From the IMG/VR virus record IMGVR_UViG_3300024269_000017: DNA of 64,000 nucleotides; one strand, written 5' to 3'. Source of the stretch: a virus (lineage: Duplodnaviria; Heunggongvirae; Uroviricota; Caudoviricetes). The position numbers and the translations under genes were made by a program. The notes under the pieces are model-generated. The model did not search any database and was not told where the DNA came from. It worked only from the letters and a program-made list of their open reading frames with translations. Shown one piece after another: positions 7,818-52,358 of this stretch. How positions within the stretch are numbered: position 1 is the first letter of the stretch; every line of letters starts with the position of its first letter.

Positions 7818-7851
7818 AAAACGATTTTCTCCTTCCTCTCAAAAAATAAAA

Positions 7852-7880: not shown

Positions 7881-7898
7881 TGTAGTAAAATTTATAAA

Positions 7899-9545: not shown

Positions 9546-9564
9546 AAGTTAGTCCCTCCTATTT

Positions 9565-10920: not shown

Positions 10921-10934
10921 TTCTTTTCTCCTCC

Positions 10935-12152
10935 TTATCCTAAAGTAATTACGTAGTTTTCAGTTGGATCGAGAGCTGCTGGCTCATATACCCAAACTTT
11001 ATAGTCTACTGCCTGGTAACCGCTCTTGCCTTCAACTTGTACGTAATCCTCTTGAAGTTTGAACTCAGAAGTAATATCTGCGTTCTGACTGACAGGCATA
11101 GTAACTTTCTTAACACCAATAGAGCTTGTCGCAGGAATTGCAACAACTACCTTCGCGGCATTCGCCACTGAACTTGCCTCATATTGAGGCAATGTTTTTG
11201 CGGAAACTGCTGCATTACTATTTGTTAATTTTCTAATATTGGCAGAATTTAAGGCTGTACCTGCAGTCATTGCACCATAGAAAAATTGACGATAGCCATA
11301 AAGCTTACCGCTCTTAGCTGTTGCAGTTCCTTCTTTAATGCGATAGCCTGCAACTGCATTACCCAAATTATTAACAGGAATGTCACCTTGAGTATATTCT
11401 GCAGTAGCATTAATGTAATAAGCAGTATCATCAGTTACAGTCAAAGCTGGGAATGTACCAGTAGTTGCTGTCTGAGCAGTATTGCCAATGGTATCAGTGA
11501 CAGAATAAGTTGCAGTGACACCAGTTGGACTAGGACCATATTCATAAGAGCCTGGATTAAAAGTCAAAGTATAGCTTGGGGTCACAGTACTGCCAACTTC
11601 ATAGGCTTTGTTTTGTGCTGCGGCGATACTTAAACCTGGCTGAGTAACATCAGGATTTTCTGGTTGAGAGAACAACATTTCAAAAACTTCTTTAACATTT
11701 TTGCCTTGTGTTTGTACAACCTCAGAACCAGAAGCACCAATCTCAACATATCCTACGTCAGTAGTAAATGTTAAATTCTGGTCAAAATAAACGTTTTCAG
11801 CGTTATAATTGCCATCCATGGCTTTCCAGTGAATGCCGTCATAAACATAAGCTGTATGACTATAAGAATCACCAAAAAGTAATTCCTTAATTACACATAC
11901 ATCATTTTTAATGAGTGTGGCACCAGCAGTAACTCTTGCAATTGCTTCTTCCTTAGACTCAGTAAACACGCCATTTTCTTGAAGGCGTACGCCTTCATAA
12001 AAATTAGCTTGAGCTAAATTTTTTTCTCCTCGAAGCAATTCTCCGGTATCTGTTAAGAAGTATAATGCATTACTTTGTTTAGAAGCTAAAGCATTATATT
12101 CTGCTCGCGTACCAAATTTAAAGAGTACGGGACTATTAGTTGCCATAAGCAA
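10935..12152 (-). CDS. tail structural protein (405 aa)
   Basis: ORF track; TAA stop. Confidence 0.7.
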   Translation of the reverse strand: MLMATNSPVLFKFGTRAEYNALASKQSNALYFLTDTGELLRGEKNLAQANFYEGVRLQENGVFTESKEEAIARVTAGATLIKNDVCVIKELLFGDSYSHTAYVYDGIHWKAMDGNYNAENVYFDQNLTFTTDVGYVEIGASGSEVVQTQGKNVKEVFEMLFSQPENPDVTQPGLSIAAAQNKAYEVGSTVTPSYTLTFNPGSYEYGPSPTGVTATYSVTDTIGNTAQTATTGTFPALTVTDDTAYYINATAEYTQGDIPVNNLGNAVAGYRIKEGTATAKSGKLYGYRQFFYGAMTAGTALNSANIRKLTNSNAAVSAKTLPQYEASSVANAAKVVVAIPATSSIGVKKVTMPVSQNADITSEFKLQEDYVQVEGKSGYQAVDYKVWVYEPAALDPTENYVITLG

Positions 12153-24840: not shown

Positions 24841-24870
24841 CCAAAAAGAAGGGGTCTCCGAAGAGACCCC
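24841..24870 (-). terminator. rho-independent terminator after tape measure gene
   Basis: GGGGTCTC-CGAA-GAGACCCC hairpin with T-run on minus strand directly after the TAA at 24880. Confidence 0.6.
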
Positions 24871-24879
24871 TTATATTTA

Positions 24880-27800
24880 TTAGCGTTTTGAACCAATGTA
24901 CTGAGCCGCGCGATTAATAAGATTATCAAAAGCATCTTGGATTTCATTACTATCTTGTACGTTCGGGAATTCTGCGGTAATATGAACTTGTTGTTGCAAT
25001 TCAGTTTCCTTGGTGGTTTGGGTAGTTTCTGCATGTAAATTATACATATTAGCTCTTGAAGCTGCGGTTGCCAAATTAATATATTCATCCATCATAGTTA
25101 ATGTGGCTTGATCAAGTTTATTTACTACTTTAACTGTATCAAGCAATTTTTGTGTATCATTTTGATTTAATACTAATTCCGGTCTACTCTTAGTGCCATC
25201 AACCCAAGCGGGGCCAGTATAATCAGCGAGGCCACCAGTGGCATATTTCTTGCCAGTTTTATCTTTAATTAGATCACCAAGCTTATTGCCAACAATAGCT
25301 CCTGCTACGCTAGTGACACCAGATCCAATGATCGCACCAACTGTGCCACCAACTTTAGAACCTACGCCTCCACCAACAACTCCACCAACAACTGCGCCTA
25401 GAACGGCACCAATATTTAATCCAGAAGATTTATCTTGTGTACCGGTTCCACCAGTGCCGCCAGTTTTACCACCTGTATCTCCAGTTTTATCATTGTTTTT
25501 AGTGGTGGTGGTATCTTTTTTGGTCGTAGTTGTAGTAGTTTTAGTGGTAGTTGTTGTAGTACTGCCAACACTCGCGCCGGCCAATTTTGCCTAGGCCTAA
25601 ATAACTTTCTAAATTTCTAAATACATTGATTCATAAGTACCAATAACACTATTTAATTTAGAAATATAATTATCCCAAGCTGTTGTAGTAGTATGAATTT
25701 GACTTACCTCTTGACGCAGTGAATCTGTCATTTTTACAGTTTCATTTTTTGCATCTTCTGTTACTTTATCATAAGTATTTACAGATTCGACCATACTACC
25801 ATAACTAGTATTTGTTAATATAGTTACTTCTGCAATTTTAGTTGCATAATCTGACATGGCCTGTTTAATACGATCATAAGCGGTTTCCATTTCATCTCGA
25901 TAATTATCAGTATCATTAATCATTTCACCAATAATTTCAGCAACAGTACCTTTTGTTCTATCTGTAATTTCTTCAACTGCAATACCATAATGATCAGCAA
26001 TTAATTCATTGGTTGTCATTGTATTTTCACTAACAATATTATATTGCTCTTGTAAATAACGAGAGCGTTCATAATAATGATCTAAAATCTCATTGATTCT
26101 TTGTTGTTTTTGTTCTTCTGTTAAAGTTTCATCCATAGCAATTTCTTTAATAGCTTCAAGCGTGTCTTGGCGTAATTGTAAAGTTTGATTATAAATATCT
26201 TGTTCGTATTCCCAATTGGTATCAGCCATTTGCTGAAGTACATCTTCATATTCTTGCTGGGCTTGATTAATAGCATCTTCATCAGCGGTATATTGATATA
26301 CCATGTTGCCTTCGCTATCACGAGTTAAGCGTACAGTACTCTTAGCGTTTTGAGCCTCTTCAAGAGCAATCTACTTAAGAAGAAGTTCATATTTAAGATT
26401 CATCATTTCAATTTCATATTCGCTTAATTCTTTTAATTCACTTTGAGCATTAATTTCATCTTGTAATGCTTTTAATTGCTTTTTATGTACACTAGAAGTT
26501 GTGTCGTTGATTGACTGTTGGATATTACGATTTAACTTACTAATTTCATATAGTTCACGCTGAGAAGAAACATATTGCTCCATTTCTTCCATGTAGAAAC
26601 CATATTCCTCAGTGAGCCAAGCAAGATCATTACCCACACCAACCATTGATTCTTCAAGATCTTTCATAATATCTTCGATTGTAGTATCGTACATATCTTT
26701 TAAGGCTTGAAGAGTTTCTTCAGTCTTAGATAGAATATTTGCTTGTACTTCATTCATTGTCTCTTGCAATGCCTCATATTGAATTCGTTCTGTTTCAGTT
26801 AATCCTTCCGCAGAGTTCATGCGCGCAAGATAATATTGCTCTTCTTCTTTAAGTACATTAAGATAGGACATTTGAGATTCAAGAGAAGCCATATTATAAT
26901 CATATTGCTTTTCATAGAAGAATAACAAATCTTCAAATGTTTGTCCTTTACCCATAAGCTGAAGAATAGACATATAAGAGCCCATAGCTTCAGAAGCAGC
27001 ATCAATTTTTGCAGTATGCTTGTCAAGTTCTTCACTAGCAAGTTCAAGAGTCTTACCATAAAGTTCTTCAATTGCTTTTTTAGCTTCTTGAATTGCCTCA
27101 AGATTATCAAGAATTTGAGATTGAATATCCTGTAGACCTGCAACGTAATCAGCTTGATTAAGATCTCCCGCCGCGAATGCAGCTTCAAGTTCTTGACGAG
27201 CTGTGGCAAGATAACTTAAATTCTATTCTGCGATTTGTCCTTGACGAATATAATTATCCATAAGAAGATCTTGTTTTTCAAGAACTTCATCATATTTATC
27301 ATTAATATAATCAAGATAATCTTTTTCAGCTTCATTAATTTCAACTTTGTATTCGACTTTATATTGAATCTTTTCAAGAGTCTTTTCAGAAATTTGATTC
27401 TGCAATTCAAGAATTTCATTTTGTTTGTCACCAATAAGGTTTAAAGTTTCTTGATATTGATCAATCCATTCCAAGGCTTCTTCAAACCATTCGTCCATTT
27501 GCTCTTTTTCTTCTTCCATATTTTCTTGAGCAGAAGCATCAGCAGCGTTGTATTTATCAATAAATGCATTGTATTTAGCTAAAATAGAATCCATTAAAGC
27601 ATCATAATTAGAAATATTCCCTTCGCCATCAAAAGTAGCACCAAGAGAAGCAACTCTCTATTTATCAACTGCTAACCACTCTTGAGCCTATCTGACATAT
27701 TCTTCCTATAAGCCAATTTCTTGTTCAATTAAAGAAATTTCTGCTTCTAAATTTTTTAAATAAGATTCTCCATAAACACGCTTTTTAACTTTATCTACTT

Positions 27801-30800
27801 TTTCTAATGCATCCGCCATACGCTCTAATGCATTATCTACTTGGAAATAGCGCTGTTTATGATCTTCTGGCTTCTTTTTATCAAGCTTCTTTGGCTTTCC
27901 GCCACCTCCGCCACCTCCACCTCCGCCGCCACCACCGGTGATACCTCCACCATAGGTGCCTTTGTTAGTGATAGTTTTAATAGCAAAACCTTTAACCATA
28001 CCATCAACAGGATTGGCATGAACACTTAAAGGAATATAAAAGTCTTGACCATTTTCACCATGGGCGATATAACTACCTGCTTTTGCAGACCACTCTGTTT
28101 GTTCCACTGGAAATTCTTTAGTTTCAACCTGCATATCCATTCCCAATGCCGCAGCCAAAGCTTGCATAATACTTGCTGCTTCATTCGCATTAGAGGCTAA
28201 ACCAGAGACAAAACCAGCCAATGAAGTTAAGTTATTCGCAACCACTTGACCCATTTCGCCTTCTCCTAACAATTCACTCCAATTAAGAGCTTTACCTTCT
28301 GGTAAACCATTAACTGCTGTTGATAAGGCTTCAAGCTCATCCGTCATAGATGAAATATCAGCATTACCTGTTAATTGATCTAAAATATGCTTAGAAGCTT
28401 TTTCTTGCAATCTATCGTAAGCTCCATCGACACCATCGGCAGCATCCTACAAATCTTTTAATACGTCATCTTGTAACATAAAGTCTTCTGTTAATGCTTC
28501 AATTCCCTTATCATCCAAATCGAGAACATCACCATACATTTCTTTCATGTCATCAAGAGCTTTTTTATGTTCAACAGTGCCCTTCTATGCCTCTTTTAAT
28601 GTTTTAGAATATGTTTTTAAATTGGACTAAACAGATTTTAAACCCTTTTGAACTCTTGCATATGAAGCTGCCAATTTGATATTATCTTCTTCTGTTTCTC
28701 CATTAATTTCGCCTAATTCTTTTAGATATTCTGTATATTCTTTTAATTCTTCAACACTACCAAAACCAGCTTTAGTTGCCAAATCATCAAGGGAAGCTTC
28801 AAAATTATCCTCTCCAGTACCAGTTGTAGCATCATCTTTAGCTTCTTGTGTCTCTTCTTTTACCCCTCCAATAATTTGATCAAATGCTGAAAGTACATCT
28901 AACCATTTCTATGGATCCCATCCAAGAGCAGTTAAGTCTGCCATCGCCGATGCTTTATCTTGATCAGTAGTTGCAGAAGATAATCTTAATAACGCCTTTT
29001 GCTCTGCTTCAGAAAATTCTATACCATAAGGAGAAAATTTTTCTGTGTTACCTGCAATAAGGCCCGCAATCGCAGCTTCTTGATCGGTATATTTATCATC
29101 TGTAAAATCACGAGTTTCTCCTTCTTTATTTGTCGTAGCAACTTCAATTGATTTTAAAATTGTATCAAAACCTGCCATAGCAACAGATTCCAAGTTCGCT
29201 GCCCAAGTTTCAGGATTAACGCTATCACTTAATTCATATTCTCCCCAACGATTGGCTTCAAATTCACCTCTAGCTCTAATCTCAGCCCTTTTATAAGCTT
29301 CTGCATCAGAAATCTCTTCTCCGTTTGCTTTAGCTTTAGTTTTTTCCTATTCTGCATATGCAGCAATAACTTCTGCATATTCTTCTGCTGTTAATGCTTC
29401 ACCTTCTCGGACTTTATCAGCAATATCTGTACGAGTTTTATAAATATTTGCTGCACCTGCCAAAGACATAAGTGCTTCCGCTGCGGCTTGAGCCGCAGTT
29501 GCAACTGCATTAATCGCAGTTTGCAGAGGTCCCTCTAAAGTAAATCCTGCAGCCTTTAATCGATCTTCAAAAGCTTGTACAGAAGCAGGATCTCCCCAAT
29601 CAACACCAGAAAGAGCATTGGAAAATTCATCTAATCTTTCTACCGGAACTGCTTTTAACATTGCTTTCATTCGATCAATACCAATTTGTCCAGCAGAAGC
29701 TTCGGCATTGGCCAAAATATTTGCCGCAGTCTCTTGATCTTCGGCAGTATCAAAAATGTAGTTATCACTAATCATTTCTTCATAAGCAGATTTAACTCTC
29801 TGAGAAAACTTACCATTAGCAATATCAAAAGTCTTAGCTCCATTATTTACCGCGGTAATAATGGCTGCATAAAATCCATCTACATCTTTAGCAATTGCTG
29901 CACCCTATTGCGTTAAACTAAGATTACCTTCTTCATCTTCGGTTAAATATCCTGCTTGAATACCCCAATTTTTCATTAAAGTGGTATCAGTTGGTAAAGC
30001 ATATTTTCCGTCTTTTAAAGAAAGTCCCAGTCCCATCGCCAAAGTGTTTTTGTTTTCTGCCCATGCATTACGACCAACATCAAAATATCCTTCTGCTAAA
30101 TTTGCCTAGGATAAAATATAAGCCGTTGCAGGATCTATACCTAATACTTTAGCAATTTGCTCCGGGTCTTGCTTAAAAGCTGCATCAATATAAATACCCT
30201 CTTGAGACCAATTTCTATTTGTATACCCTTCAACATCTTTGTATAATGCCGTTTCTACAGCAGCTAAAGCCTCAGAACCACCAGTTCCATCACTATCAAA
30301 TAATGCAGAAACCAATTTCCAATTATCTGCATTCTATAGCCAATCTGTAGTTACTTCTGTCCCAAAAATTAAAGTTAAAATATCAGCTAAAGCTTTAAAT
30401 TTTTCCAAATTTGCTTCAGTAATAGTGGAATCTGCCATATCTTGATTTAATGCAGTAAAATCTGACAACATACCAATTAAAGAATTAAATCCTTTGGCTC
30501 GATTTGATTTAATTACTGCATCTTCATAAGCTTGCTATGTTGTAATTGCTGCATTAGAATTATATAATTTTAATTCTTCTAAGTCATAACCATTCGCACT
30601 AGCGATATTAGATAAAATTGAATCTCTTGCCCAAGCTGGGATGGTAGAAAAATCTGCTTTACCATCTTTCGTAAAACCTGCATTAATTAAATCTGTAAAT
30701 GAAGTAACTGTTGCGTACCAACTATTTAAATCTTCTGATGTAACCTATAAGGTATCTCGACTAGCCCATAAAGTTCCAATTCGACTATTAACATCCTATT

Positions 30801-33800
30801 TTTCTGTATCAGTAGATGATTCTAACCACTTATCCAAAGCAGTTTTGCCTGCTGTATCTTTGGTAATATCATCTAACCCTAAAAGCAGAGATAATAATTT
30901 GCGATCTTCTGACGTTAAATTATCAAAATCAATTAAAGCATCTTCTGTATTTGCGAATTTATTTAAAATTTCATATAATGTATTTGAAAATAAAATTGAT
31001 TTAGACAATGCATTGTCTTGTGAATTTGCGATATATTGCCATTCTTCACCAATTTTTGCAAATTGATCTTGAGTTAAAATACCATACTATTCTAATAAAT
31101 CTAACTCTTCTTGTGAGATCAATCCACCCTCTTGAATTGTTGCTAAAATTTCAGACAATGCAGGAATAGCATTTTTAAAATTTAATAAATTATCGGTTGA
31201 ACGAGATGATTGTGTCTAATGATAATTGTTTAATCCATCAACTTGTGATAAATCTAAAGTTCCACCTTTTGTAAAAAGGCTTAAAATTTTATTTATATCC
31301 CCATTAGCCCAATCTTTAATTAATTGCTATTCGTAACCACTAAGTTCTGATAACATTTTTTGCTATCTTCTAGTTAACTAATTGCCAAATTCGCCCCATT
31401 CTGAAACCCATGCAGTAGAATCTTCCAATAAAGTTGCCAAATTACCTTCTGAAAAAATGCCTAAAATGTCACCGCCATAAATATCTGCCAATGCACTCTA
31501 ATGCTGTGCAAACACAGCTTGCCCTTCTTCGGTTTGGTAATATGCTAACTCTTCTCCTGTAAGGACATCCATATTACCTTTTGATAAATATAATTTCTAT
31601 AATACAGGATCTGCAGTTGCGTAACTAGAAATTAAAGGACTTATATACTACTCTGGATTATTCATAATATCAGTAAGAGTAGGCATAGATAATAATGACG
31701 TAATAGGAATTAATAAATCTTCGACGTCTTCTGACAAAGATTTAATTGTAATCATACCAGACTCTTTATCATAATTATCCATTAATTTGTCTGTTGTCCA
31801 ATCATATTGACTAATATCATAATCGCTATTGGTTGCGAGATAATCTCGATATGATAATAAATAACCACCCATTTGAGCCCAATCTTGTGCTTCTGCATCA
31901 GGCACCCAATTCTCAGGTAAAGAATTTACTAAAATTTCTTCTAATTTATATGGGAGAGCAGTCTATAGCCATTTCATTGTATCTGCATCATATTTAGCAG
32001 TTTTATTATTGTCATTTAATAAATAATTAGCTAAAATGCCATATTGTGCAGGCTACCAAAGAGCATCAGCCCTTGCTTTAGCTGCCCCTTGTGCAAACAC
32101 AGTATCTGTATTTACAGTTAAAACACCTGTATCTGTTAAAGCTCCTACAAAAGCGTTTGGATCAAAAACACTGCCATATTGAGCAGATGGATCCATCCAT
32201 AAATGAAGCTATTGCTCTAATGCGTAAGGTAAATGTCCATTGTTTAAATAATCTAAAACTGCTTCTCCGGCATTTTTATATGTTTTATCATATTGTGTAC
32301 TTGCCCAAGTTAAAGCTTCAGTAACAACAGTATTAATTAACGCTCTTTGATCATATTCATAATCATCGCCACTAAGAGTCTTAAAAAACTTGTCGCCATC
32401 TGCGCTGTTTAATAACCATTGAATCGCTTCATAATTTTCAACAGACCAGCCTTGTGTTGTGTCATAACCAACCTCTTGTGCATCCTCAGGAGTTAAATTA
32501 TGTCTAGTTTCTCCCGATGGACTAGTAAAAGTTGTAGCATATTCAGGCTTAAAAGCGGTACCATATGGATTTGCCCAACCTAATATATATGGCAAAGAAC
32601 TTTCTCGTGATCCAAGTGCCTCTAATCCCGGAAAAGCTTCTTGTAAAATTTCAGGAATTATTTCTGAAGTAGTTTCCCACTTAATAGCTCCAAATAACAT
32701 AGAATGCTTAGTAGTTTTTGTTTCAGTATTAGTTAAAACATTTCCTGAAGCTCCCGCCATTTCAGCACGTCTTTCTTGCGCAATTTCCAATTGACGCATG
32801 GATGATTCTCCTAACGCTGACCAAGCATACTGCATACCTAAATTACGTTGTTCAACTTCTAAGGCTCTAGAGACCAATAGATCCATATTAATCAAGCCAT
32901 TATCATCATATAAAGAACTTAAATCAAAATTATCTCCAAAATATTTTATTGGATCTTTTAATATCTTCCCCAATAAAGGATATGCACTTAATAATTCTAA
33001 AGTCGCAGACTAAACATTACTTAATGCTTGATACCATGCTGAAGTTCCTTCAGTGCAATTATCTAATGCTTCTCTAACACTTGTATAAGAATCAAAATCA
33101 TCTTCTAAAGAAGATATTTTATTTTTAGTATTGGTAATTGCTGTGCTTAACTCTTCAACCTAAGATTTTAAATTTTGCAAATTTTCATCTACACTCATAG
33201 GCTTTTCGACTTCTTTTCTAAAAGCAACGAATGCACCTACAACTAAAGCCAATGCTCCTACAATTAAAGTTAATGGCCAAATTGCAGTATTTAATGCAAC
33301 ACCAAAACCTGTGACTGCATGTGTTGCACCAGCCGCGCCTGCTCCAACCGCAGCCGTTCCTGCCGCGCCAGCAGCTCCAGCAGCAGGCAATAGTGACATT
33401 ACGCCGATTAAGCCTTGACTGATAGAAACAAGAGTCATTACAGTTGTAATAACAAATCCTAAAATTGCATCGAATTTTTCCCAGCCAGACACTTCAGGAT
33501 CTTTTAATGTGTCAACTAAACCCTTAAAAGAATTAATTAAACCATAAATTGATTCAAGACTTCCTGCAATATCTAAAACTGCATTTAAATTTTTAGATGT
33601 TTTTTGTGCGGCTTGAGCAAAAGCTTGTTCCATCTTTTCGCCAGCTTCTTCTGCATCTTTACCCAGTTTATCTAATTTAGATCCACCTTTTTCCCATTCT
33701 TGGAATAACTCTTCAAAACGGCTTTTTAATTCTGGTGGTACCATATTTAAAATAATCGCTTTAATTTTTGGTACATTTTTAGATAATTTCGCTTCAGCCT

Positions 33801-36255
33801 TAGACATACCTTCAGAAATTAAATTAAATAATTGTTCAATTTCTGCTTTTGTTTTATCCCCAGCAAAAGCTTCTTCTAATGATCCAGCGTTGCCTTTAAT
33901 TTTCGCAACTTGACCATTAATTAATTTACTACCTGTTTCTTGTCCAATTCGTTCTAATTCTTTAGCATATTGCAATAGATCTTTTAGAATTTCAGCATCA
34001 CTACGATTAGATGCAAATAATTCTGGTGCTTCAATTGTTCCAAAAGTTTGTTCAATTTGTTTTCCCATATTTTTAACATCTCCAAAAGCTGTAACCAATG
34101 TCTAAGCAGAAGAAACCGCCTAATCAAATGTTAAATTTTCTAAATCCTTAAAACCTAATTTAGTAAAACTAGAACCAAGCTCTTGTGCAAGCTAAGATAC
34201 GGTTTTTTCAAGTTCTTTAGTGGAAGTAGCATCTGTTGTAAACTTAACTTTAATATCAGCCGCATCCACTAAAAATTTTTTATTTGCTTCTTCTGTAAAT
34301 TTTTTCTTTTCTCGCGCATTTAAATAAGCATAATCCTTATTCTATTTATGAGCTCTAGCTTTAGCTTCTTGACTTACTACTTCATCTACTAATGAAGATT
34401 TTTCTTTTTTCATGTTAGTCTGACGTTTTTGCTCTAATTGCATTAACTCATTTAATGCAGCAATTTGTTCTTGATAAGCTGAAATTACTGCTTTAGCTTG
34501 CGCAATTTGTCCTTCTGACATATTTTTTGATGCAACTAATAATTGATCTTTTTTCTCAGAAACTTTTAAAGCTGCATTAATTTGCATATCTTGTGATGGA
34601 TCTAATACTGAACTATCTTTCTAAATTTTTTGTAACTCTTGACGCATCTGCGCTGAATTTTGTAAAAATCTAGTTTGTTCATTCATTCCAGTAAATGCGT
34701 CTTTAATTTTTGTAGTAATTTTTGTAATACCGTTTGCAATATCATCACTAAAAGCTTGAGTTAATGCACCACCAACAGTTCCGATAATACCAGCGACACC
34801 GCCCATACCATCAATTAAGCCGCCAAGAGTAGTTACAATTTTTTCAATTGCATTAGTCACTCCGACCAAAGCTTTATCATTAATTAAACTACTAAAAATT
34901 TTTTCCCAGGCTGCTTGAACTCTTCTGGATGCTGCCTCCCAAGATTCTGCTGCAATATCTGCCATTTCTTGTAAAGAACCTTCCGCATTTGTTGCAATAG
35001 ACATATTGGACTTATACATAGAAGAATTTTCCATTAAGGCCATCCATTGAGTATATTGTCGTTTACCGGCAATCACTTGTGCTATAGCAGTTTGCTCTGC
35101 TCGTCCCATTTCTCCCCATTTGGCCATTAAATCTTCAATAATTGTTCCCATATCTCTCAATTCGCCGTTAGCATCTAAAATAGATACACCAACTTTTTCT
35201 AATTGAGAAGATACTTGTCCAAGATTTACCCCGTCTTCTAATGTCTCTCCAAGTTTCAAATCACCAATACGAGCAAAAATTGTTTTAAATGCAGTACCAA
35301 TAGATTCTGCGGATTCACGAGTAACAGAACTAACTGTAGCAATAATGGAAGAAACTTGCTCCATTGATACACCAACTGTATTAGAAGTTGCAGCTACTTT
35401 TTGCATAGAAGTTGCAATTTCTTCTAAGCTAGTGGCGGTTTTTGCACCAAGGGCTGCCATAATATCTACATATCGTTCAAGTTCATCAGCACCGACTTGA
35501 TAAGAGTTCCATACTGCAGTTAAATATTCTGACATTTCTTGTGCAGAAGTATTAAAACTTGAATTAGCTGCCTTAATTGTAATTGCTGCTTTTTTAGCTA
35601 CCTATTCTGCACTATCGCCCTATTGAAAATAAATCAAAGATGCATCAGCATATGCTTTAGTGGTTGTAGATAATTCTCTCGCCGCGCGATTAGCCTATAC
35701 AGCAAATCGAGACATATCTTCTGCACTTTGTCCAGTAACAATACGAATATTTGTTAAAGAACTATTTAAATCTTTTACATAGGACACAGCTCCAGATAAT
35801 GCACTTTCTAAACCATGTACCATTGTAGAAGATAATTCCCATTTTACTGTATTTTTTAAAGTCTGTCCCCATGCAGCTAATGTGCTATTCATGCGCTTAA
35901 TTGGTACTTCTGCACTGGCAATAACAGAAGCCAATTGTGAAAAAGCTGCTTGACCAGTTTGTCCTGCATCTAATAAAGCATTGCCTAATTGAGTAACAGA
36001 TGTGCCAGCTTTATTTAAACTATTAACAAATGTGTTAAGATTTAATTCACCAGTATTTACATTAGTAGCCTCTTGTAAATGCTTTTTTAAATCTTGCGCA
36101 GCTTCAGAAGCTTTTTTAAGTGCTGAATCTGAAATTGCTACTTCCAAATCCACAGTTGACACTTTATTTAAGCTTTTTTGTAATTCACTTAAAGCTTTTT
36201 TAGCCTAAGAGGTGTCAGCATTAAATTGTAATGTAAACTATCTGTTTCCAGCCAT
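24880..36255 (-). CDS. tape measure protein, ~3791 codons, dozens of in-frame TAGs
   Basis: 15 ORF-track fragments (24880...36162) all in one frame; coiled-coil-rich sequence, hydrophobic Ala/Gly transmembrane-like segment (33160-34098 fragment), C-terminal Thr-rich region; ATG at 36253-55 after AAGGAGATTG RBS with TAG as codons 6 and 17; TAA stop followed by terminator. Confidence 0.6.
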
Positions 36256-36280
36256 TTACACAATCTCCTTTCTCTCAAAA

Positions 36281-36311
36281 AAGCCTGACACAAATATTGT
36301 GTCAGGCTTTT
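36281..36311 (-). terminator. terminator between chaperone gene and tape measure gene
   Basis: AAGCCTGACAC...GTGTCAGGCTT hairpin flanked by A/T runs. Confidence 0.45.
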
Positions 36312-36344
36312 CTCCTAATCTCTATCAAAGTTTATTTAAATAAA

Positions 36345-36869
36345 TTAACCAATCTTATCAAGAATATCCTTCACTAATCCAATCTTATCAGGTTGATCAA
36401 GTGTTTTCATAATCTCTTCAACATTCAATTTAGTAGCATCATAATCATTAGTTACAGTTTTCATCATTCCAACAAAAGAATTCAAATACTTAACAGTATG
36501 CTCCGCACAATCTTCAATCGCATCAAAAATAGCATCATATTCATCTTCGGGAATTGCAGCAATAACATGATCAAGAACTTCATTAATCATTAATAGATCA
36601 TAAGTATTCGGAGCATTTTCTATCATCTTATCAGTAATAGAAATATTTGTATAAGTTTTTACAATTTCAAGAATTGCATAAACTTCTAAACGAACAGGAT
36701 TCAAAAATCCAGTATCGTCAATAGTCAAATTCAATACTCGCTCAACAAGAGCAAGCTTATCATTTACAGGAAGATACTGAATGACTTCAACTTCCTGTTC
36801 ACCAATCTTAATAGTCTGTGGATCAACCTTCTTAATAGGGGTGACCGCTTTCAAAGAAACTTTAGCCAT
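36345..36869 (-). CDS. tail assembly chaperone-like acidic protein (174 aa)
   Basis: ORF track; lies immediately upstream of tape measure gene; AGGAGAGATTAGC RBS. Confidence 0.5.
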   Translation of the reverse strand: MAKVSLKAVTPIKKVDPQTIKIGEQEVEVIQYLPVNDKLALVERVLNLTIDDTGFLNPVRLEVYAILEIVKTYTNISITDKMIENAPNTYDLLMINEVLDHVIAAIPEDEYDAIFDAIEDCAEHTVKYLNSFVGMMKTVTNDYDATKLNVEEIMKTLDQPDKIGLVKDILDKIG

Positions 36870-36902: not shown

Positions 36903-36931
36903 ATTATACCAGAAAATTTTTTGTTTGTCAA
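36903..36931 (-). promoter_or_regulatory. sigma70-type promoter (TTGACA-17-TATAAT) reading into chaperone/tape-measure operon
   Basis: minus strand reads acTTGACAaacaaaaaattttctggTATAATatatac; same TTGACAAAC -35 as the early promoters. Confidence 0.5.
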
Positions 36932-38844: not shown

Positions 38845-39777
38845 TTATTCTTGTGCTTCATCCAACTGACCGAAGATACCAGCATCTTCAACGATCTGAA
38901 GAGCAGCAATAACCTTCTTGGTCTTGTCAAACTTGGTATAATCCGGGAAAGCATCCATGGTAAAGGTGAAGGTGGAAGGATCACCGGTAGGAGCCATGGT
39001 GAAGGTGAAGTTAGACTGAACCTTGCAGTTTGGAATAATGAACTCTGCAGGGAAGTCATCACCAGTTGCCTGATCACGGAACAAGGTAGAAGCTTCAAGA
39101 TAGTAAGAACCACCGAACTTACCAGCTTCAATATCAATCTGCTTTACGCCCTTAGCAGCTTCGATGTAGTAGTCAACATAAAGAATGTCGCCTTCTGCAA
39201 CAGTAGGAGCGTTCTGAGTGGGTAGCTTCAATTCAATATGACGAGCATCCTGATTGTAAGCGGTAGCCCAGTTATCAAGAACATCCTGAATAACCATTTC
39301 TGCACCAATATCAGTAGAAGCAATCTGCATAGGTAGCTTAGAAGCATCAATAGAGCCGTCCTCAGTCATGAGCATGATATACATTTCACCCTGATTAGAA
39401 GGCTTCTTCTCAAGCTTAACCTTTAGAGCGCCACCATCATTAACAACTTCCAACTGTTCGGTAGCATGAACATAAATCTTCTCATCATCAGAAGCATCCA
39501 TGAAACCAGCACCAGAAAGAATGGAGAAGCTCTCAGGAGAAATCAAAGCATCTTCCATAGTAAAGGTTACAACGCGGTCGCCTTCCCAAGCTACCAAGCG
39601 AGGATTACCTTTACCACCCTGAGCATAAACAGTAGTAGCAGTACCTTCAAGACTGGAAGTCTTCAAGGTATCGAAATAAAGAACAGGCATGTTCTTATCC
39701 AAATAAAGCTTACCGAAATAACCGCCGGCCTTCTTCTTTAGCACAACGTCACAAATTTCGCGTACACCAAATTTCAT
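38845..39777 (-). CDS. abundant structural protein, major tail (tube)-like (310 aa)
   Basis: ORF track; GGAGGAAAAAACC RBS; higher GC and codon bias than neighbours; strong terminator downstream; no TAG. Confidence 0.6.
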   Translation of the reverse strand: MKFGVREICDVVLKKKAGGYFGKLYLDKNMPVLYFDTLKTSSLEGTATTVYAQGGKGNPRLVAWEGDRVVTFTMEDALISPESFSILSGAGFMDASDDEKIYVHATEQLEVVNDGGALKVKLEKKPSNQGEMYIMLMTEDGSIDASKLPMQIASTDIGAEMVIQDVLDNWATAYNQDARHIELKLPTQNAPTVAEGDILYVDYYIEAAKGVKQIDIEAGKFGGSYYLEASTLFRDQATGDDFPAEFIIPNCKVQSNFTFTMAPTGDPSTFTFTMDAFPDYTKFDKTKKVIAALQIVEDAGIFGQLDEAQE

Positions 39778-39802: not shown

Positions 39803-40549
39803 TTAATGGATATTTTTCATCCAATCATTGGGCTTGCCATCGGGTTTACCTCCGGCCAAGCGAGACCGTATGTCTAAATCCCAACTAATCCATAAGCCAT
39901 ATCGTTCAATTAAATCATATAGCTAATAAACAGTTAGATCTAAACACTTATCTAGACTCATTGAATTTAATCCAATAGTAAGAATAGATACATAACGAGC
40001 TAACACGCTTCCTTCCCCTTCTCCTCGTAGCTGGGCTGCTCTCTAACGACCTTTCATTAGCTTGGCCGCAATTTGAGCGGCTCGCTCATTAGCAGGGTTG
40101 AAATTAGAATTCTATCCACCCGCAGTATTATTCATACCAGCCATATTTGTTAATACAGCCTAAAAAGCATCAAAATTATTTTCATCTAAAACAAAGTGGT
40201 GCTAAGTTTCAGCATTATTAAAATAGATGCTATGAGGAAGAAATTGAGCGGTATACCCAGGAAAAAGTAATACAAACATTGAAATCATTGCATTTCGTTT
40301 TTCATTTACGTTTTTCATTTCTGGGTCTGTTACCAACGTCATAAATATCTAAAAATTATTCATAGCCTATAGAGCAGAACTGCCCTATGGGTTTGCAGCT
40401 ATGATTATCTATTTATTGAAGCATAGTATTTGTAACGATGAAAAATACTATTCTTCGCCTAAGAAAGAAATTTCTCTAATAGTTGGCTAATGTAAACTTG
40501 TACCTAATTCTGGAATTGGGATATCGGTTCCAGCCATTAACTGCAACAT
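39803..40549 (-). CDS. 249-codon structural gene with 11 in-frame TAG codons
   Basis: hand-stepped every codon: ATG 40547-49 after GAGGGAGGGG RBS; TAGs at 40487, 40448, 40409, 40385, 40367, 40349, 40202, 40160, 40112, 40043, 39923; no TAA/TGA until TAA at 39803-05, which sits just before the RBS of the next gene. Confidence 0.6.
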
Positions 40550-42430: not shown

Positions 42431-43021
42431 TTACGCCTCCTGCTTTGGAGTGACTACCTTATACTGCGGGACTGCGGTACGACGGCCAGTAGCAGGCTGT
42501 GCTTCCTCAGTCTTCACACGACGCACAGGAGTAATTGCTTCGGCTTTCACGCCAGACTCTTCTTCCTCTGCCTTGCGAGCTTCTTCCAAATGCTTAATCG
42601 CTGCGGTTACGTCGAAGCCCATCTTTTCTTTGATAGCTTCACGCTTACGATTATCATTTACTGGAAGTGCCACAGCGTGCTTCTTAATTAAATCAAGCAC
42701 GCCTTCGGGAGCAAAATCCAAACAATCTAAGAATGCATCAATAGAACCTTTTTCAAGTAGATCAATAACACCCTTTTCATCCAAATAATATTCAGGCTCA
42801 ACTTTTACAGACATTTCTTGTAGAGCGGACTCATCCTGAACAAATAGATGCTTGCGAATTAGATTCATGCCGCCGGGCAAATAAGACAGAGCATTTAGTT
42901 CGTCCATAGAAATGGTTTTTACTTCGTTGGGAGCAAACTCGCGACGAACACCCATTTCCGGCACACTGTATACAACCATAGAACTACTTCTATTCTTTAC
43001 AGAAACTTTCTTATCACTCAT
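42431..43021 (-). CDS. hypothetical protein (196 aa), possible head completion/DNA-packaging protein
   Basis: ORF track; directly downstream of capsid gene. Confidence 0.5.
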   Translation of the reverse strand: MSDKKVSVKNRSSSMVVYSVPEMGVRREFAPNEVKTISMDELNALSYLPGGMNLIRKHLFVQDESALQEMSVKVEPEYYLDEKGVIDLLEKGSIDAFLDCLDFAPEGVLDLIKKHAVALPVNDNRKREAIKEKMGFDVTAAIKHLEEARKAEEEESGVKAEAITPVRRVKTEEAQPATGRRTAVPQYKVVTPKQEA

Positions 43022-43039
43022 ATTTTAAAACTCCTTTTA

Positions 43040-43068
43040 CTCAAAAATGGGGAGGGAGTGATCCCTCC
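43040..43068 (-). terminator. terminator after major capsid gene
   Basis: GGGGAGGGAGTGATCCCTCCCC hairpin with T-run on minus strand. Confidence 0.5.
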
Positions 43069-43085
43069 CCGATATATTTATTTAA

Positions 43086-44132
43086 TTAACCAGAAACCTT
43101 GTCACCATCATAAACCTTGGTATCCAAGGAGTTGTTTACATAAACGCAAATGTCAGGAGTCATAACGACGCCAACGCCAACCTTCTTGTAAACCTGGATT
43201 TCACGGCTACGATCCTTGTTAACATACTCGTCAACAATGGTAGCACCTTCCATAACAACCTTAGCTGGCTTTACAGAACCAGGTAGGATGTAGCAATGGG
43301 AAGGATCAATAACCTTCTCGGTATGAGTAGCATCAGTGAAACCTTGTGGAAGAATAACAACAGGATGATTCTTATAAGAAGCAAAGCGACCATTATTCCA
43401 GATAACATCCTTCATGTTGTCAGACCACATATTAGCATTCTCAGGACGAATGGTGCTAGCAAACTCCTCAGTGCAGTAGATGGTAGGAGTACCATAAGCT
43501 GCAGCAATAGAAATAAGACGATCGAATGCCTTCTCGTCGAAAGCAGAAGCCTCAACCTTATTCATGGTTGGAAGCTGATTCAAACCAGTCTTAAGAGCCT
43601 GACCGATCTCCCAGTAAATAAGCTCGTCCATGCCGTCCATAACGATCTTGGTAACTTCAGCAAAATCAGCACGACCATCAAGGAACTCCTCAAGACCGAT
43701 CTGAGCTGCGCCACCAATAGCGCTGGTCTGCATTTCGATAGCAGTATCCTTACCAAGCTTAAAGACTTCGTAGATACCTGCAAGTCCGACCTTGGTAATA
43801 AACTGCTTAGCACGCTGACGATCATGGTGACGATGGAAGATAGCCTTATCGCCCTGACCAATGGTCTTGATCTCAGCAAACTGACCATAGTTTTCCATAA
43901 CCTTCTTAGGAAGTACTTCATCCATAGTCTGCTCAATTAGAGCAAAAATCAAATTCTTATTCTCACGATACTGAGCGAAAGTGCCAGCATACTCGTTGAG
44001 TTCACGGCGAAGAGTCTCATTAAGAGCATCATAAGTCAAATTCTCGCCGTTAAAGCTGTAAGCAACCGGAGCGGAGCGATCAGCTTTAGCAGTAGCCTTC
44101 ATAAGCTTCAAAAGTTCATTTCTTTCTAACAT
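43086..44132 (-). CDS. major capsid protein (HK97-fold-like, 348 aa)
   Basis: ORF track; follows protease/scaffold genes; codon-biased; terminator downstream; no TAG. Confidence 0.6.
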   Translation of the reverse strand: MLERNELLKLMKATAKADRSAPVAYSFNGENLTYDALNETLRRELNEYAGTFAQYRENKNLIFALIEQTMDEVLPKKVMENYGQFAEIKTIGQGDKAIFHRHHDRQRAKQFITKVGLAGIYEVFKLGKDTAIEMQTSAIGGAAQIGLEEFLDGRADFAEVTKIVMDGMDELIYWEIGQALKTGLNQLPTMNKVEASAFDEKAFDRLISIAAAYGTPTIYCTEEFASTIRPENANMWSDNMKDVIWNNGRFASYKNHPVVILPQGFTDATHTEKVIDPSHCYILPGSVKPAKVVMEGATIVDEYVNKDRSREIQVYKKVGVGVVMTPDICVYVNNSLDTKVYDGDKVSG

Positions 44133-44155
44133 AGCTAGTTTCTCTCCTTTCCGAA

Positions 44156-44860
44156 TTACTGAATACGCATGACCTTAACGGCCTTCTGCATATCGCCTAA
44201 ATTGTATACCTTAACAACCTGCCACAACATGCCGGACTCAGCCTCGGTCTTAGCCAAGTAGCCCTTTGCATTAGGAGCAAGAATGTCACCAAGAGCAAGA
44301 GTTTCCTCTGCAACACAGTTAGTAGTAAAGATGTCGCCCTCATGAGTCTTGAATAGACGAGGAGTCATCATACCCTGAACATCAGAAAGTAGCTGAGGCT
44401 GATTTAGATTCTCAATCTCATAGGACTGACCAATCTTCAAATGCATACGACCAAAGTCATCAGCAGCACCCTCATCAGTATAACCAGCAGCATAAACATC
44501 GGTCTCAGCACCGATAGTCTTCATCTGGTTGTCAACATCGCCCTTAGCGCCAACTGGGCTATAAACATAACCATTGTAGTCACGAGCGATCATAGCGAAG
44601 TCCTGGTCGGTCTCCCATGGAGCATAGACCTTAACTTCATTGAAGATAAGCATCCATTCGCCCTTACCTTCAAAATCAACAGTACCATTTACATAGTTGT
44701 ACTTAGCAAACTGACCATTCTCTAGGATCTTGATATCCTTATGAGCAGGCAACTGAGCATAAATTTCACCAGTGCGCTGTGCGGAGAGATGGTTAGGCTC
44801 AACCTGACCGAAGCCATAAGTTACATACTTAGCTTCAGGAGATAATCTTTTAAAAGCCAT
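44156..44860 (-). CDS. head protein (decoration or scaffold-like, 234 aa)
   Basis: ORF track; between protease/scaffold and capsid genes. Confidence 0.5.
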   Translation of the reverse strand: MAFKRLSPEAKYVTYGFGQVEPNHLSAQRTGEIYAQLPAHKDIKILENGQFAKYNYVNGTVDFEGKGEWMLIFNEVKVYAPWETDQDFAMIARDYNGYVYSPVGAKGDVDNQMKTIGAETDVYAAGYTDEGAADDFGRMHLKIGQSYEIENLNQPQLLSDVQGMMTPRLFKTHEGDIFTTNCVAEETLALGDILAPNAKGYLAKTEAESGMLWQVVKVYNLGDMQKAVKVMRIQ

Positions 44861-47932: not shown

Positions 47933-48289
47933 TTAATAGCCAGCCTTTGTCATAATATAATCATAAGTAATAAGATTCTCTTCTGTATACGGAATTTCAA
48001 CTAATGGGATTTCCTTTAATGCACAAAAACGACGTTTCTTGTTATCATTGAACTACTGTTGATAAAAACCTTTTGTTCCACCAAATTTACTTGATGGTTC
48101 ATAATGTTGTTTACCTTGATATTCAATAAGGAAATCAATATTTCCATCATCGTCAAATACACAAAAGTCAAACCGCAAAGGACGACCATTCGGGCTATTT
48201 AAACCCTCAAATGATTGTTCCATTGTGAACCGCAATCCCGCCTCTTCCAGAATCTCTTGAATCTTGATTTCTCCACGAGACGCTCTCAT
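47933..48289 (-). CDS. free-standing DUF559/Vsr-like endonuclease-domain protein (~118 aa), one in-frame TAG at 48053
   Basis: FDFxVFD...IEYQGKQH...EIPLVEIPY motif pattern of the DUF559 PD-(D/E)xK family; GGGAGG RBS; sits between terminase and portal, a typical homing-endonuclease position; paralogous to C-terminus of 53149-53925. Confidence 0.5.
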
Positions 48290-51223: not shown

Positions 51224-52290
51224 TTACTCCTTTGCCTTCTTGTTCTTGGCATTCCGGCAACACTTACACAAAGAATACCATCCATCTCTTGAACCTTTGT
51301 TTATGGAAAAAAATCTTGAATGGGCTAACTTAATTTGCCCACACCTAGTACATTTCTTCCACTTCCCATATTCTTTTTCAGTATAATACCAGGTCAGCCA
51401 TTCATCTGTATAATAAGAGGCAATGAGCTTTGGAATTTTATTACGCCATAACGAAGAAATATATTCGAGCGAATGAGTGAAGCCGAATTCCTTTTCAATC
51501 ATTTCCTTGATATCAACATTAGATTGCCCGTCAATTTTATATTCTACAATACGACGGTATAAAGGATAGCCGGCAAGTGAATTATCTACTAATCTATCAA
51601 AGTCTTCCATCATATACCAGGTATCACCCTCGAACCTGCCATAGCATCCTTCTTTTAGTTTAGAATAATTGCATAAAATAGTGCTAATAACAACGGGATT
51701 GATAAAGGACACACCTTCATACTGGATTTCTCCATTTTCATCTACCCATTCATCCCATGGGAGTTTAATATAGTGTCCGATATTTCTTGTAATATTTCGC
51801 GCAACAATTGGTTGGCGGTAGGCGTTTTTAATAAGATATTGATCCTTCCGCAATTCGATAATAGTTGATTTGATAATATAGGCTGCTCGCCCAGTCGCAG
51901 TTTTAGACAGCTTTTCCCAATATGCTATGCTGTCGCGCAACTGACGTAATGGCTCAATTTCTTCTAAATCTTTTTTCGTAATTGTTACTTTCGGCTAAAA
52001 TATTACATTCTTATCGTTCGTTACTAAATTATATATACCATCTTCGCCATTCTCCAACTGGCCAACAAGACCCTCGAAAGATGTTTCTCGTTTATTGACA
52101 GTCGCCATACGGTTGTCGGTGAGAATCTTTCGCTCCTTCTTCTCTTGTTTCTCCATACAAAGAACCAAATAATCAGCAAGGATTTCCAGATATTGCTCGC
52201 TTGGGTCGGGAGTCTCTGTTAAAATCTATTTCACCAATTCATTTCGCTCTTGAGGAGATTCAATCGTATAATCTAGCTTGATTATAATAA
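51224..52290 (-). CDS. ~355-codon protein with C-terminal CxxC...CxxC Zn-finger and 2 in-frame TAGs; first gene of late operon
   Basis: ORF 51224-51940 continues upstream in frame through two TAGs to AGGAGG RBS near 52295; exact start codon unclear (TTG or ATT). Confidence 0.4.
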
Positions 52291-52311
52291 TCAACCTCCT
52301 TCTATGCCTCT

Positions 52312-52340: not shown

Positions 52341-52358
52341 GTAAAAAAGATCGCCCAT

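What the first reader, a model, noticed from the sequence alone, without database searches (positions are those of the whole stretch)
24880..36255. Single ~3,790-codon tape measure gene spelled with dozens of TAG codons
Fifteen ORF-track fragments from 24880 to 36162 all sit in one frame. The gene starts at an RBS-coupled ATG (36253-55) with TAG as codons 6 and 17. It ends with TAA followed by a terminator. If tail length scales with tape measure length as usual (~0.15 nm per residue), this predicts an unusually long tail (>500 nm). It also contains a (GGN)13 poly-Gly tract (~27895-27950) and a Thr-rich C-terminal region.
Basis: partly seen in the sequence, partly recalled or inferred. Interest (0 to 1): 0.6.

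Follow-up and report, generated by a model that had tools for sequence, protein, structure and literature searches.

The report
Giant TAG-recoded phage tape measure gene
This is one real 3,791-codon phage tail tape measure gene in which 42 TAG "stop" codons are read as glutamine; it predicts a tail of roughly 570-610 nm, but both giant tape measures and TAG-recoded gut phages are already known.

Summary
Window 24880-36255 (minus strand) is one open frame of 3,791 sense codons with 42 in-frame TAG, no TGA and no internal TAA. It starts at an AAGGAG-coupled ATG and ends in TAA followed by a strong terminator hairpin. TAG means Gln: TAG exchanges mainly with CAA/CAG in homologous genes, and an invariant Gln in 120 homologs, including a standard-code Enterococcus phage, sits at one TAG position. 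The tape measure reading is supported. The N-terminal ~500 aa match PF10145 and tape measure PHROGs. Both ends align to both ends of the 2,673-aa tape measure of Enterococcus phage VRE9_2. Gene order matches SPbeta/EF1-like siphophages. More than 100 metagenomic homologs are single ORFs of 3,500-4,800 aa. Within-group calibration (Perkons 0.156 nm/aa; P23-45 0.16 nm/aa) predicts a ~570-610 nm tail; this is inferred, not shown. The poly-Gly and poly-Thr tracts are ordinary tape measure features. The ~1,450-aa middle is hypervariable, has almost no relatives and shows no detectable enzyme domain. TAG-to-Gln gut phages with 3,149-3,209-aa tape measures (phAss-1 group) and a 5,002-aa tape measure (P23-45) are published, so this is a new member of a known kind. 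No suppressor tRNA was found in the window or within 10 kb of either end.

The parts
24880..36255 (-). Tape measure protein gene: 3,791 sense codons plus TAA, with 42 in-frame TAG read as Gln
36265..36270 (-). Shine-Dalgarno AAGGAG, 9 nt upstream of the ATG
36277..36313 (-). Terminator-like hairpin (17-bp stem followed by a U-run) between the chaperone-like gene and the tape measure RBS; it may attenuate transcription into the gene
   Evidence: dG -24.3 kcal/mol, z -6.3
24849..24872 (-). Intrinsic terminator hairpin 7 nt after the stop codon
34666..36225 (-). N-terminal tape measure domain (aa 11-530). The PF10145 core is aa 190-397, window 35065-35688
   Evidence: 101.5 bits, cutoff 33.2; phrog_34405 E 3.6e-61, and others
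33208..33477 (-). Hydrophobic, transmembrane-like block (aa 927-1016) with an Ala/Gly-rich linker
28846..33198 (-). Hypervariable middle (aa ~1020-2470). Among 120 homologs only P0001 shares it (44% identity). No family, PDB or motif hit
27937..28845 (-). Widely shared module before the poly-Gly tract (aa ~2471-2773; up to 77% identical to otherwise more distant homologs, so the gene is mosaic)
27898..27936 (-). (Gly)13 tract, aa 2774-2786
25606..27888 (-). Conserved E/Q-rich, high-helix-propensity segment (aa ~2790-3550); it aligns to the C-terminal half of the Enterococcus phage tape measure
25516..25560 (-). Thr-rich run (aa 3566-3580)
25288..25419 (-). Gly-zipper-like hydrophobic segment (aa 3613-3656)
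24883..25251 (-). Conserved C-terminal domain (aa 3669-3791; motif GGLADYTGPAW.DGT..PELVLN ... VHITAEFPN); it matches the extreme C-terminus of annotated tape measures
36345..36869 (-). Upstream chaperone-like gene (phrog_30570; the homolog hits Pfam YomO weakly)
38845..39777 (-). Tail tube gene (phrog_2729; homologs hit Pfam YomU_Tube); no TAG codons
18766..24759 (-). Downstream 1,997-aa virion protein with 18 TAG codons, the first at codon 4

Best explanation
The ORF is the tail tape measure protein of a roughly 168-kb SPbeta/Enterococcus-EF1-like siphophage from gut-type metagenomes. The host is probably a Clostridia member such as Lachnospiraceae. The phage decodes TAG as glutamine (genetic code 15) in its late genes. 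Shown: it is one gene, TAG corresponds to Gln, and both termini and the gene's position are those of a tape measure. Inferred: copies of the protein fill the lumen of the growing tail tube. The N-terminal PF10145 domain and C-terminal domain would engage the tail-tip and tail-terminator ends, and the total length would set tail length at about 0.15-0.16 nm per residue, giving about 570-610 nm. On infection the protein would be ejected, and its hydrophobic blocks (aa 927-1016 and 3613-3656) would help form the channel through the envelope. The hypervariable middle would act mainly as a length spacer, because it varies in sequence and comes in length classes while the end blocks stay constant. 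With 42 TAGs in one message, full-length product needs near-complete TAG decoding (0.98^42 = 0.43; 0.95^42 = 0.12). TAGs at codons 6 and 17 would abort translation at once if the suppressor is absent. The gene can therefore be made only after the late-infection code switch. No gene in the window ends in TAG, so release factor 1 is dispensable for the phage.
For: One frame with 42 TAG and no other internal stop. PF10145 at 101.5 bits and ten tape measure PHROGs on aa 11-530. aa 1-929 and 2786-3790 align to aa 1-962 and 1640-2673 of the annotated 2,673-aa tape measure of standard-code Enterococcus phage VRE9_2 (E 2e-60 and 2e-53). The last 123 aa hit the extreme C-terminus of tape measures in Enterococcus phages, phage c-st and Phass-1. 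The PHROG/Pfam gene order matches VRE9_2, and SPbeta-named families (YonD, YonB, YomV, YomU_Tube, YomW, YomO) flank the homologs. At least 120 single-ORF homologs are 3,170-4,800 aa long. TAG = Gln: position 212 is Q in 120/120 homologs and in VRE9_2; CAA is the commonest codon opposite TAG, and the substitution spectrum mirrors that of CAA; codons 6 and 17 are TAG in four genomes and CAG in L006. All 26 late genes end in TAA or TGA, and 23 early ORFs end in TGA or TAA. The end blocks are length-constrained and the middle falls into length classes. Calibration: Perkons tape measure 2,439 aa with a 380.6 nm tail (PMC13245101); P23-45 5,002 aa with an 800 nm tail (10.1101/2022.12.01.518664). The recoding pattern agrees with published code-15 phages (10.1101/2021.08.26.457843; PMC10607447).
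Against: No suppressor tRNA was found in the window or within ~10 kb of either end, so who decodes TAG is unknown. There are no particle or proteomic data. The middle 1,450 aa has lower helix and heptad scores and more Pro and aromatic residues than the ends. Both AlphaFold models have low confidence (pLDDT 40 and 45), so an extended helical ruler is not demonstrated for that part. The host assignment rests on a single binned MAG contig.
Confidence: 0.9

Rival explanations
1. The region is several separate standard-code genes, or pseudogene fragments, and each TAG is a real stop.
For: Under table 11 the region reads as 43 fragments, 15 of them >=60 aa. The GenBank annotation of the related Phass-1 shows exactly this kind of fragmentation.
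Against: There are zero TAA or TGA codons in 3,791 codons, where about 224 are expected. Only 1 of 42 restarts has an SD-like motif, whereas nearly all the real genes here have strong AGGAG-type sites. TAG columns align with CAA/CAG/Gln in homologs and in a standard-code phage. No gene in the window ends in TAG. The homologs are collinear over the full length.
Confidence: 0.01
2. It is a tape measure fused to non-ruler cargo. The hypervariable middle (aa ~1020-2470) would encode one or more globular, injected effector or enzyme domains, as in the P23-45 tape measure with its fused RNA polymerase. The tail would then be shorter than the residue count predicts, and the middle would have a function of its own.
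For: There is a precedent in P23-45 gp96 (PMC10770324). The middle has lower heptad contrast and more Pro and aromatic residues. It is swapped between lineages like a module. Some homologs carry other inserts, namely inteins and PG-binding domains by Pfam and stretches that look Ig-like by eye.
Against: There is no Pfam, PHROG or PDB-sequence hit and no DxDxD motif. The exhaustive HMMER search found only 28 weak hits, none to a non-tape-measure family. The low-confidence AlphaFold model is mostly helices with no confident globular domain. Even P23-45, with its polymerase, keeps 0.16 nm per residue.
Confidence: 0.15
3. TAG read-through is only partial and regulatory. Most ribosomes would stop at the early TAGs, and a minority would make full-length protein, which keeps tape measure copy number low.
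For: The tape measure is a low-copy virion protein. TAG is absent from the most highly expressed genes (capsid-like and tube) and common in low-copy ones. There are early TAGs at codons 6 and 17.
Against: With 42 TAGs, even 90% efficiency per codon yields only 1.2% full-length product. Homologs carry up to 83-110 TAGs, which only near-complete reassignment can tolerate.
Confidence: 0.05

Closest known systems
phAss-1 / proposed Phassvirus group tape measure proteins (Babkin et al. 2023, PMC10607447; GenBank OQ749652)
   Same: Human-gut siphophage of >130 kb related to Enterococcus phage EF1, with TAG decoded as Gln in late genes. The tape measure is the giant recoded gene: 3,149-3,209 aa in the paper, and a 3,155-codon ORF with 110 TAGs in my reading. 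The public standard-code annotation shatters it.
   Different: Only 31.8% identity over the N-terminal domain, and no nucleotide-level match. This gene is ~600 aa longer. phAss-1 has three tRNA-Sup(CUA) genes, while none was found in the 84 kb examined here. The genome here is ~168 kb against 136 kb.
Enterococcus phages VRE9_1-4 / EF1 / EF5 / H1 tape measure (phrog_34405; 2,673 aa)
   Same: Same order of structural-gene PHROGs, and both termini of the protein are homologous (E 2e-60 and 2e-53).
   Different: They use the standard genetic code and are ~1,100 aa shorter; the extra length here lies in the middle.
Thermus phage P23-45 gp96 (5,002-aa tape measure, ~800 nm tail)
   Same: A giant tape measure with membrane segments that sets an extremely long tail (PMC10770324; 10.1101/2022.12.01.518664).
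   Different: It has a fused N-terminal RNA polymerase (DFDGD motif) and a metallopeptidase domain, neither detected here. It uses the standard code and is an unrelated lineage.
Psychrobacillus phage Perkons (tape measure 2,439 aa; tail 380.6 +/- 16.1 nm)
   Same: Its N-terminal tape measure domain is homologous (32% identity, E 3e-40). It is a long-tailed siphophage of ~137 kb, and it provides the within-group calibration of 0.156 nm/aa (PMC13245101).
   Different: Standard code, temperate, soil Bacillales host, and a much shorter protein.
Bacillus SPbeta tail module (YomI tape measure; Yon/Yom structural proteins)
   Same: Homolog loci hit the Pfam families YonD_N, YonB, YomV_2nd, YomU_Tube, YomW and YomO, in the same order.
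   Different: From my own knowledge, SPbeta YomI is ~2,285 aa and carries lytic transglycosylase and peptidase domains. No lysin domain was detected here.

Membership tests
Phage tail tape measure protein (PF10145-type, Firmicutes siphophages) | N-terminal PhageMin_Tail / tape measure domain | tested here: met
   PF10145 at 101.5 bits against a cutoff of 33.2, aa 190-397 covering profile positions 2-201 of 201; ten tape measure PHROGs
Phage tail tape measure protein (PF10145-type, Firmicutes siphophages) | Position in the tail module: after the tail tube and chaperone genes, before the distal tail/baseplate genes | tested here: met
   Tube (phrog_2729 / YomU_Tube) and chaperone-like (phrog_30570 / YomO) genes lie upstream, and large tail proteins lie downstream. 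The order is the same as in VRE9_2
Phage tail tape measure protein (PF10145-type, Firmicutes siphophages) | C-terminus homologous to tape measure C-termini (the part that sits in the tail tip) | tested here: met
   aa 2786-3790 against VRE9_2 tape measure 1640-2673, E 2e-53; the last 123 aa hit the very end of annotated tape measures
Phage tail tape measure protein (PF10145-type, Firmicutes siphophages) | Hydrophobic / transmembrane-like segments | tested here: met
   aa 927-1016 and 3613-3656
Phage tail tape measure protein (PF10145-type, Firmicutes siphophages) | Predominantly extended alpha-helical / coiled-coil structure along its length | tested here: inconclusive
   The AlphaFold models are mostly helical but have low confidence (pLDDT 40 and 45). 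Propensity scores are weaker in the middle
Phage tail tape measure protein (PF10145-type, Firmicutes siphophages) | Protein length determines tail length (deletions or insertions change the tail) | not testable with these tools
   Needs genetics and EM. Only indirect support: length classes in homologs and calibration from Perkons and P23-45
Code-15 (TAG to Gln) recoded phages | In-frame TAG in conserved, essential late genes | tested here: met
   12 of 26 late genes contain TAG, including the tape measure, portal, TerL and the sigma factor
Code-15 (TAG to Gln) recoded phages | TAG positions correspond to Gln in relatives, including standard-code ones | tested here: met
Code-15 (TAG to Gln) recoded phages | TAG is not used as a terminator | tested here: met
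   0 of 26 late genes and 0 of 23 early ORFs end in TAG
Code-15 (TAG to Gln) recoded phages | Phage-encoded suppressor tRNA(CUA). This is common but not universal: about 40% of TAG-recoded genomes in 10.1101/2021.08.26.457843 | tested here: inconclusive
   ARAGORN and Rfam find no tRNA in the window or in ~10 kb beyond each end. About half of the ~168-kb genome was not seen
Proposed genus Phassvirus (phAss-1) | High nucleotide identity to phAss-1 (members share 80-86%) | tested here: not met
   No megablast match of the gene to any GenBank phage, and 31.8% aa identity in the most conserved domain. It is related at a higher rank only
Tape measure with fused virion RNA polymerase (P23-45 type) | DxDxD catalytic motif / two-barrel polymerase domain | tested here: not met
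   No D.D.D motif anywhere in the protein, and no Pfam or PDB hit

The most novel reading that the evidence does not exclude
These gut Clostridia phages would form an abundant, unannotated family whose tails are among the longest of any virus: about 530-760 nm for tape measures of 3,500-4,800 aa. Tail length would be set by swapping a sequence-unconstrained but length-quantised middle cassette (~1,800, ~2,400 or ~2,700 aa). Alternatively, that orphan cassette could be a new injected cargo. Either reading would make the family a natural experiment on the ruler mechanism and on why a gut phage needs such reach.
Probability: 0.2. Interest if true: 0.55.

Novelty: new member of a known kind. Interest (0 to 1): 0.3.

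Why it matters
Practically, this shows how standard-code annotation shatters the largest structural gene of a common gut phage group into dozens of meaningless ORFs. None of the >100 relatives carries a name in any public source. Biologically, 42 TAGs in one message, and up to 110 in relatives, set a hard lower bound on how completely the code must be switched late in infection. The family's length classes offer a testable ruler system, and a ~600 nm tail would rank among the longest known. None of this changes current concepts: recoded gut phages, giant tape measures and homopolymer tracts in tape measures are all documented.

Tried and rejected
Megablast of the whole gene against GenBank phages gave no match. 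The search for homologous proteins with the middle region alone returned nothing. That was a miss by the word-index candidate step, not biology, because P0001 aligns locally at 44% identity. I folded P0001's orthologous middle instead (pLDDT 40) and the TAG-free C-terminal 236 aa with a 22-sequence alignment (pLDDT 45). Both models were too poor for a fold search, so none was run. The PDB sequence search of the middle gave nothing. Rfam on the whole window gave nothing. tRNA scans of the window and nine related or flanking loci gave none. Walking further with an exact 38-mer in IMG/VR found no match, and I abandoned further walking because each step adds only ~10 kb. Literature searches for EM data on Enterococcus EF1-like phages, Enterocloster phage PMBT10 and SPbeta YomI gave no usable tail length. 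The 54-64 kb region at first looked anomalous, with no long ORFs and 49% GC. I checked it for another recoding and for repeats, and it proved to be an ordinary early-gene region of small ORFs behind repeated consensus promoters. The simple helix/heptad heuristics were only weakly informative.
Full report
OBSERVATION. Translating window 24880-36255 on the minus strand gives 3,792 codons. There are 42 TAG codons, no TGA, and a single TAA, which is the last codon. The other two frames of that strand hold 246 and 469 stops. Base composition predicts about 141 TAA and 83 TGA in a frame of this length, so a frame free of both has a chance probability near 1e-100. Under the standard code the frame breaks into 43 pieces. 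The ATG at 36255 follows AAGGAG by 9 nt. The TAA is followed after 7 nt by a 10-bp GC-rich hairpin and a T-run at 24849-24872 (dG -22.5 kcal/mol, z -4.8). The (Gly)13 tract is at aa 2774-2786 (window 27898-27936), and the Thr-rich run is at aa 3566-3580.

ONE GENE, NOT SEVERAL. After the 42 TAGs, only one candidate restart codon has an SD-like motif, against a 6% background among in-frame start codons. Nearly all the real genes in the window have strong AGGAG-type sites. All 26 minus-strand genes end in TAA (24) or TGA (2), and 23 small plus-strand early ORFs end in TGA (19) or TAA (4); none ends in TAG. A search of 5.8 billion proteins returned 120 listed homologs of 3,170-4,800 aa, each called as a single ORF and each starting MAGN(R/K)QQFTLQFNADT. 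Their DNA shows the same pattern: 41, 69, 71 and 83 in-frame TAGs with one terminal TAA.

TAG MEANS GLUTAMINE. The database pipeline had already translated TAG as Q in those homologs, so counting Q at aligned positions is partly circular. I therefore tested at codon level. Opposite TAG, the commonest codon in aligned homologs is CAA (81), then TAG (68), GAA (61) and AAA (49). The order of non-TAG partners is the same as the order seen opposite CAA. Position 212 is Q in 120 of 120 homologs, is encoded by CAA in three homolog genomes, and is Q in the standard-code tape measure of Enterococcus phage VRE9_2. Positions 3549 and 3555 are also Q there. Codons 6 and 17 are TAG in four genomes and CAG in a fifth. 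This matches published code-15 phages (10.1101/2021.08.26.457843; PMC10607447).

IT IS A TAPE MEASURE PROTEIN. aa 190-397 match Pfam PF10145 (PhageMin_Tail) end to end at 101.5 bits against a cutoff of 33.2, and aa 11-530 match ten tape measure PHROGs. The window's minus strand is a phage late module. In order it holds a sigma factor, a phrog_3314 protein, the large terminase, an HNH endonuclease, the portal, capsid-like genes, head-tail genes, the tube (phrog_2729), a chaperone-like gene (phrog_30570), this ORF, and then proteins of 1,997, 128, 1,002 and 899 aa. Homolog loci carry the Pfam families YonD_N, YonB, YomV_2nd, YomU_Tube, YomW and YomO in the same order, so the module is SPbeta-like. 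The PHROG order also matches Enterococcus phage VRE9_2, whose annotated tape measure is 2,673 aa. Both ends of the ORF align to both ends of that protein: aa 1-929 with 1-962 (E 2e-60) and aa 2786-3790 with 1640-2673 (E 2e-53). The last 123 aa hit the extreme C-terminus of annotated tape measures in Enterococcus phages, Clostridium phage c-st and Phass-1. No tail sheath family was detected among the genes scanned, which fits a siphovirus.

ARCHITECTURE. The parts, in order, are as follows:
- aa 1-530: tape measure domain.
- aa 530-925: helix-prone stretch.
- aa 927-1016: hydrophobic block.
- aa ~1020-2470: a middle shared only with P0001 (44% identity) among 120 homologs.
- aa 2471-2773: a widely shared module, up to 77% identical to otherwise more distant homologs, so the gene is mosaic.
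- aa 2774-2786: (Gly)13.
- aa ~2790-3550: a conserved E/Q-rich segment.
- aa 3566-3580: Thr run.
- aa 3613-3656: Gly-zipper-like hydrophobic segment.
- aa 3669-3791: a strongly conserved C-terminal domain (GGLADYTGPAW.DGT..PELVLN ... VHITAEFPN).
In the 25 homologs where all four anchors could be placed, the N block measures 874-939 aa and the C block about 890-1,060 aa (one outlier at 1,233). The middle falls into classes of about 1,750-1,860, 2,350-2,500 and 2,600-2,750 aa. A segment that varies in sequence and comes in length classes between constant ends is what a spacer/ruler would look like, but this is inference.

IS THERE HIDDEN CARGO? The 5,002-aa tape measure of P23-45 carries a fused RNA polymerase (PMC10770324), so I tested the middle. 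It gave no Pfam or PHROG hit, no PDB sequence hit at E <= 1, and no DxDxD motif. An exhaustive HMMER search of P0001's orthologous middle against 1.84 billion representatives gave only 28 hits at E <= 0.001. The best was another giant protein (3,312 aa) matching only a sub-stretch, and the rest were short fragments. AlphaFold on that middle, run as a single sequence, gave pLDDT 40: mostly helices with loops, one small sheet, and no confident globular domain. The C-terminal 236 aa, run with 22 aligned sequences, gave pLDDT 45: a disordered Thr/Gly region followed by two long helices. Both models are too weak for fold searches. Cargo is therefore not supported, but it is not excluded.

TAIL LENGTH. 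Psychrobacillus phage Perkons shares the N-terminal domain (32% identity, E 3e-40). Its tape measure gene is 7,320 nt, or 2,439 aa, and its measured tail is 380.6 +/- 16.1 nm (PMC13245101), which gives 0.156 nm/aa. P23-45 gives 5,002 aa for 800 nm, or 0.16 nm/aa (10.1101/2022.12.01.518664). Applied here, 3,791 aa predicts about 570-610 nm.

HOMOPOLYMER TRACTS. [quoted passage not shown] The Gly and Thr runs are therefore ordinary for this protein class.

CONTEXT OF THE RECODING. TAG makes up 19% of the Gln codons in this gene (42 TAG, 161 CAA, 17 CAG). It is absent from the capsid-like and tube genes, which have GC 0.43-0.44 and prefer CAG. It is also absent from the four genes of the left block (504-12146). 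It reaches 69% of Gln codons in gene 39803-40549. In six of the twelve TAG-containing genes the first TAG falls within the first 25 codons. The plus-strand region at 54-64 kb holds small early ORFs behind about a dozen near-consensus TTGACA-17-TGnTATAAT promoters. Because 0.98^42 = 0.43 and 0.95^42 = 0.12, full-length tape measure requires near-complete TAG decoding. No phage gene here needs RF1, since there are no TAG terminators. No tRNA was found in the window or within ~10 kb of either end. The window maps to about 39,973-103,972 of a 167,964-bp contig, so about half of the genome was not examined. A 154,615-bp contig binned with a Lachnospiraceae MAG carries a 3,749-codon homolog with 83 TAGs, which is weak evidence for the host.

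COMPARISON AND NOVELTY. The closest published case is the phAss-1 group: human gut, TAG read as Gln, tape measures of 3,149-3,209 aa, related to Enterococcus phage EF1 (PMC10607447). Its GenBank record shatters the gene into small ORFs, and I read it as a 3,155-codon ORF with 110 TAGs. The present gene is only 31.8% identical in its best-conserved domain and has no nucleotide-level match, so it belongs to a different lineage of the same broad group. The ~154-176 kb contig sizes resemble the "Agate" clade of Borges et al. (154 +/- 27 kb); I did not test that membership. The exact protein is not in the 15-billion-protein collection, and no relative carries a name. Verdict: the finding is correct and cleanly supported, but it is a new member of a known kind.

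Noticed in passing
window 54000-64000 (+ strand): Early-gene region with ~49% GC, against ~35% in the late module. About a dozen near-identical cassettes are present: A-tract, TTGACA, 17 nt, TGnTATAAT, a leader, then the GAAAGAGGTAAT..ATG RBS, each ahead of a small ORF. Of 23 ORFs, 19 end in TGA and 4 in TAA, whereas the late genes end 24 in TAA and 2 in TGA.
   Followed up: partly
window 38845-39777, 42431-44860 and 504-12146 (-): TAG is completely absent from the tube and capsid-like genes (GC 0.43-0.44, CAG-preferring) and from the four genes of the left block. It makes up 10-69% of Gln codons in low-copy virion genes. This suggests selection against TAG in the most highly expressed genes, or recent acquisition of the TAG-free blocks.
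   Followed up: partly
window 36277-36313 (-) and 36903-36931 (-): A strong terminator-like hairpin (dG -24.3 kcal/mol, z -6.3) sits between the chaperone-like gene and the tape measure RBS. A perfect 12/12 sigma-70 promoter with an extended -10 lies just upstream of the chaperone-like gene, inside the late module.
   Followed up: partly
window 51224-52294 (-), promoter near 52320-52350: A phage sigma-factor gene (phrog_5767) heads the late module behind its own near-consensus sigma-70 promoter. It contains 2 TAG codons, the first at codon 23, so the late transcription factor may itself depend on TAG suppression.
   Followed up: no
window 47933-48289 (-): An HNH/homing endonuclease gene lies between the large terminase and the portal genes. 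The terminase matches two separate PHROG families for its N- and C-terminal halves.
   Followed up: no
window 504-7817 (-); L010-L012: A 2,437-aa protein with BspA-type leucine-rich repeats (PF13306 LRR_5) and no TAG codons. Exact copies occur in contigs from >=31 sample blocks, the longest 167,964 bp. It is a likely adhesin or receptor-binding protein.
   Followed up: partly
homologs P0041, P0058, P0059, P0067 and the C-terminal segments printed: The stretch just before the conserved C-terminal tape measure domain is a swap site. Different homologs carry Hint/intein domains (PF07591, PF14890), a PG-binding domain (PF01471), or sequences that look like Ig-type beta domains by eye. This window has the poly-Thr run plus the Gly-zipper segment there.
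   Followed up: no
window 24880-36255 compared with public assemblies: The flanking proteins (135 aa and 2,437 aa) have exact copies in dozens of public contigs, but the exact TAG-to-Q tape measure sequence is not in the collection. Its ends are 92-97% identical to P0003, while its middle resembles only P0001 (44%). The tape measure appears to be a recombination hot spot within one phage species.
   Followed up: partly
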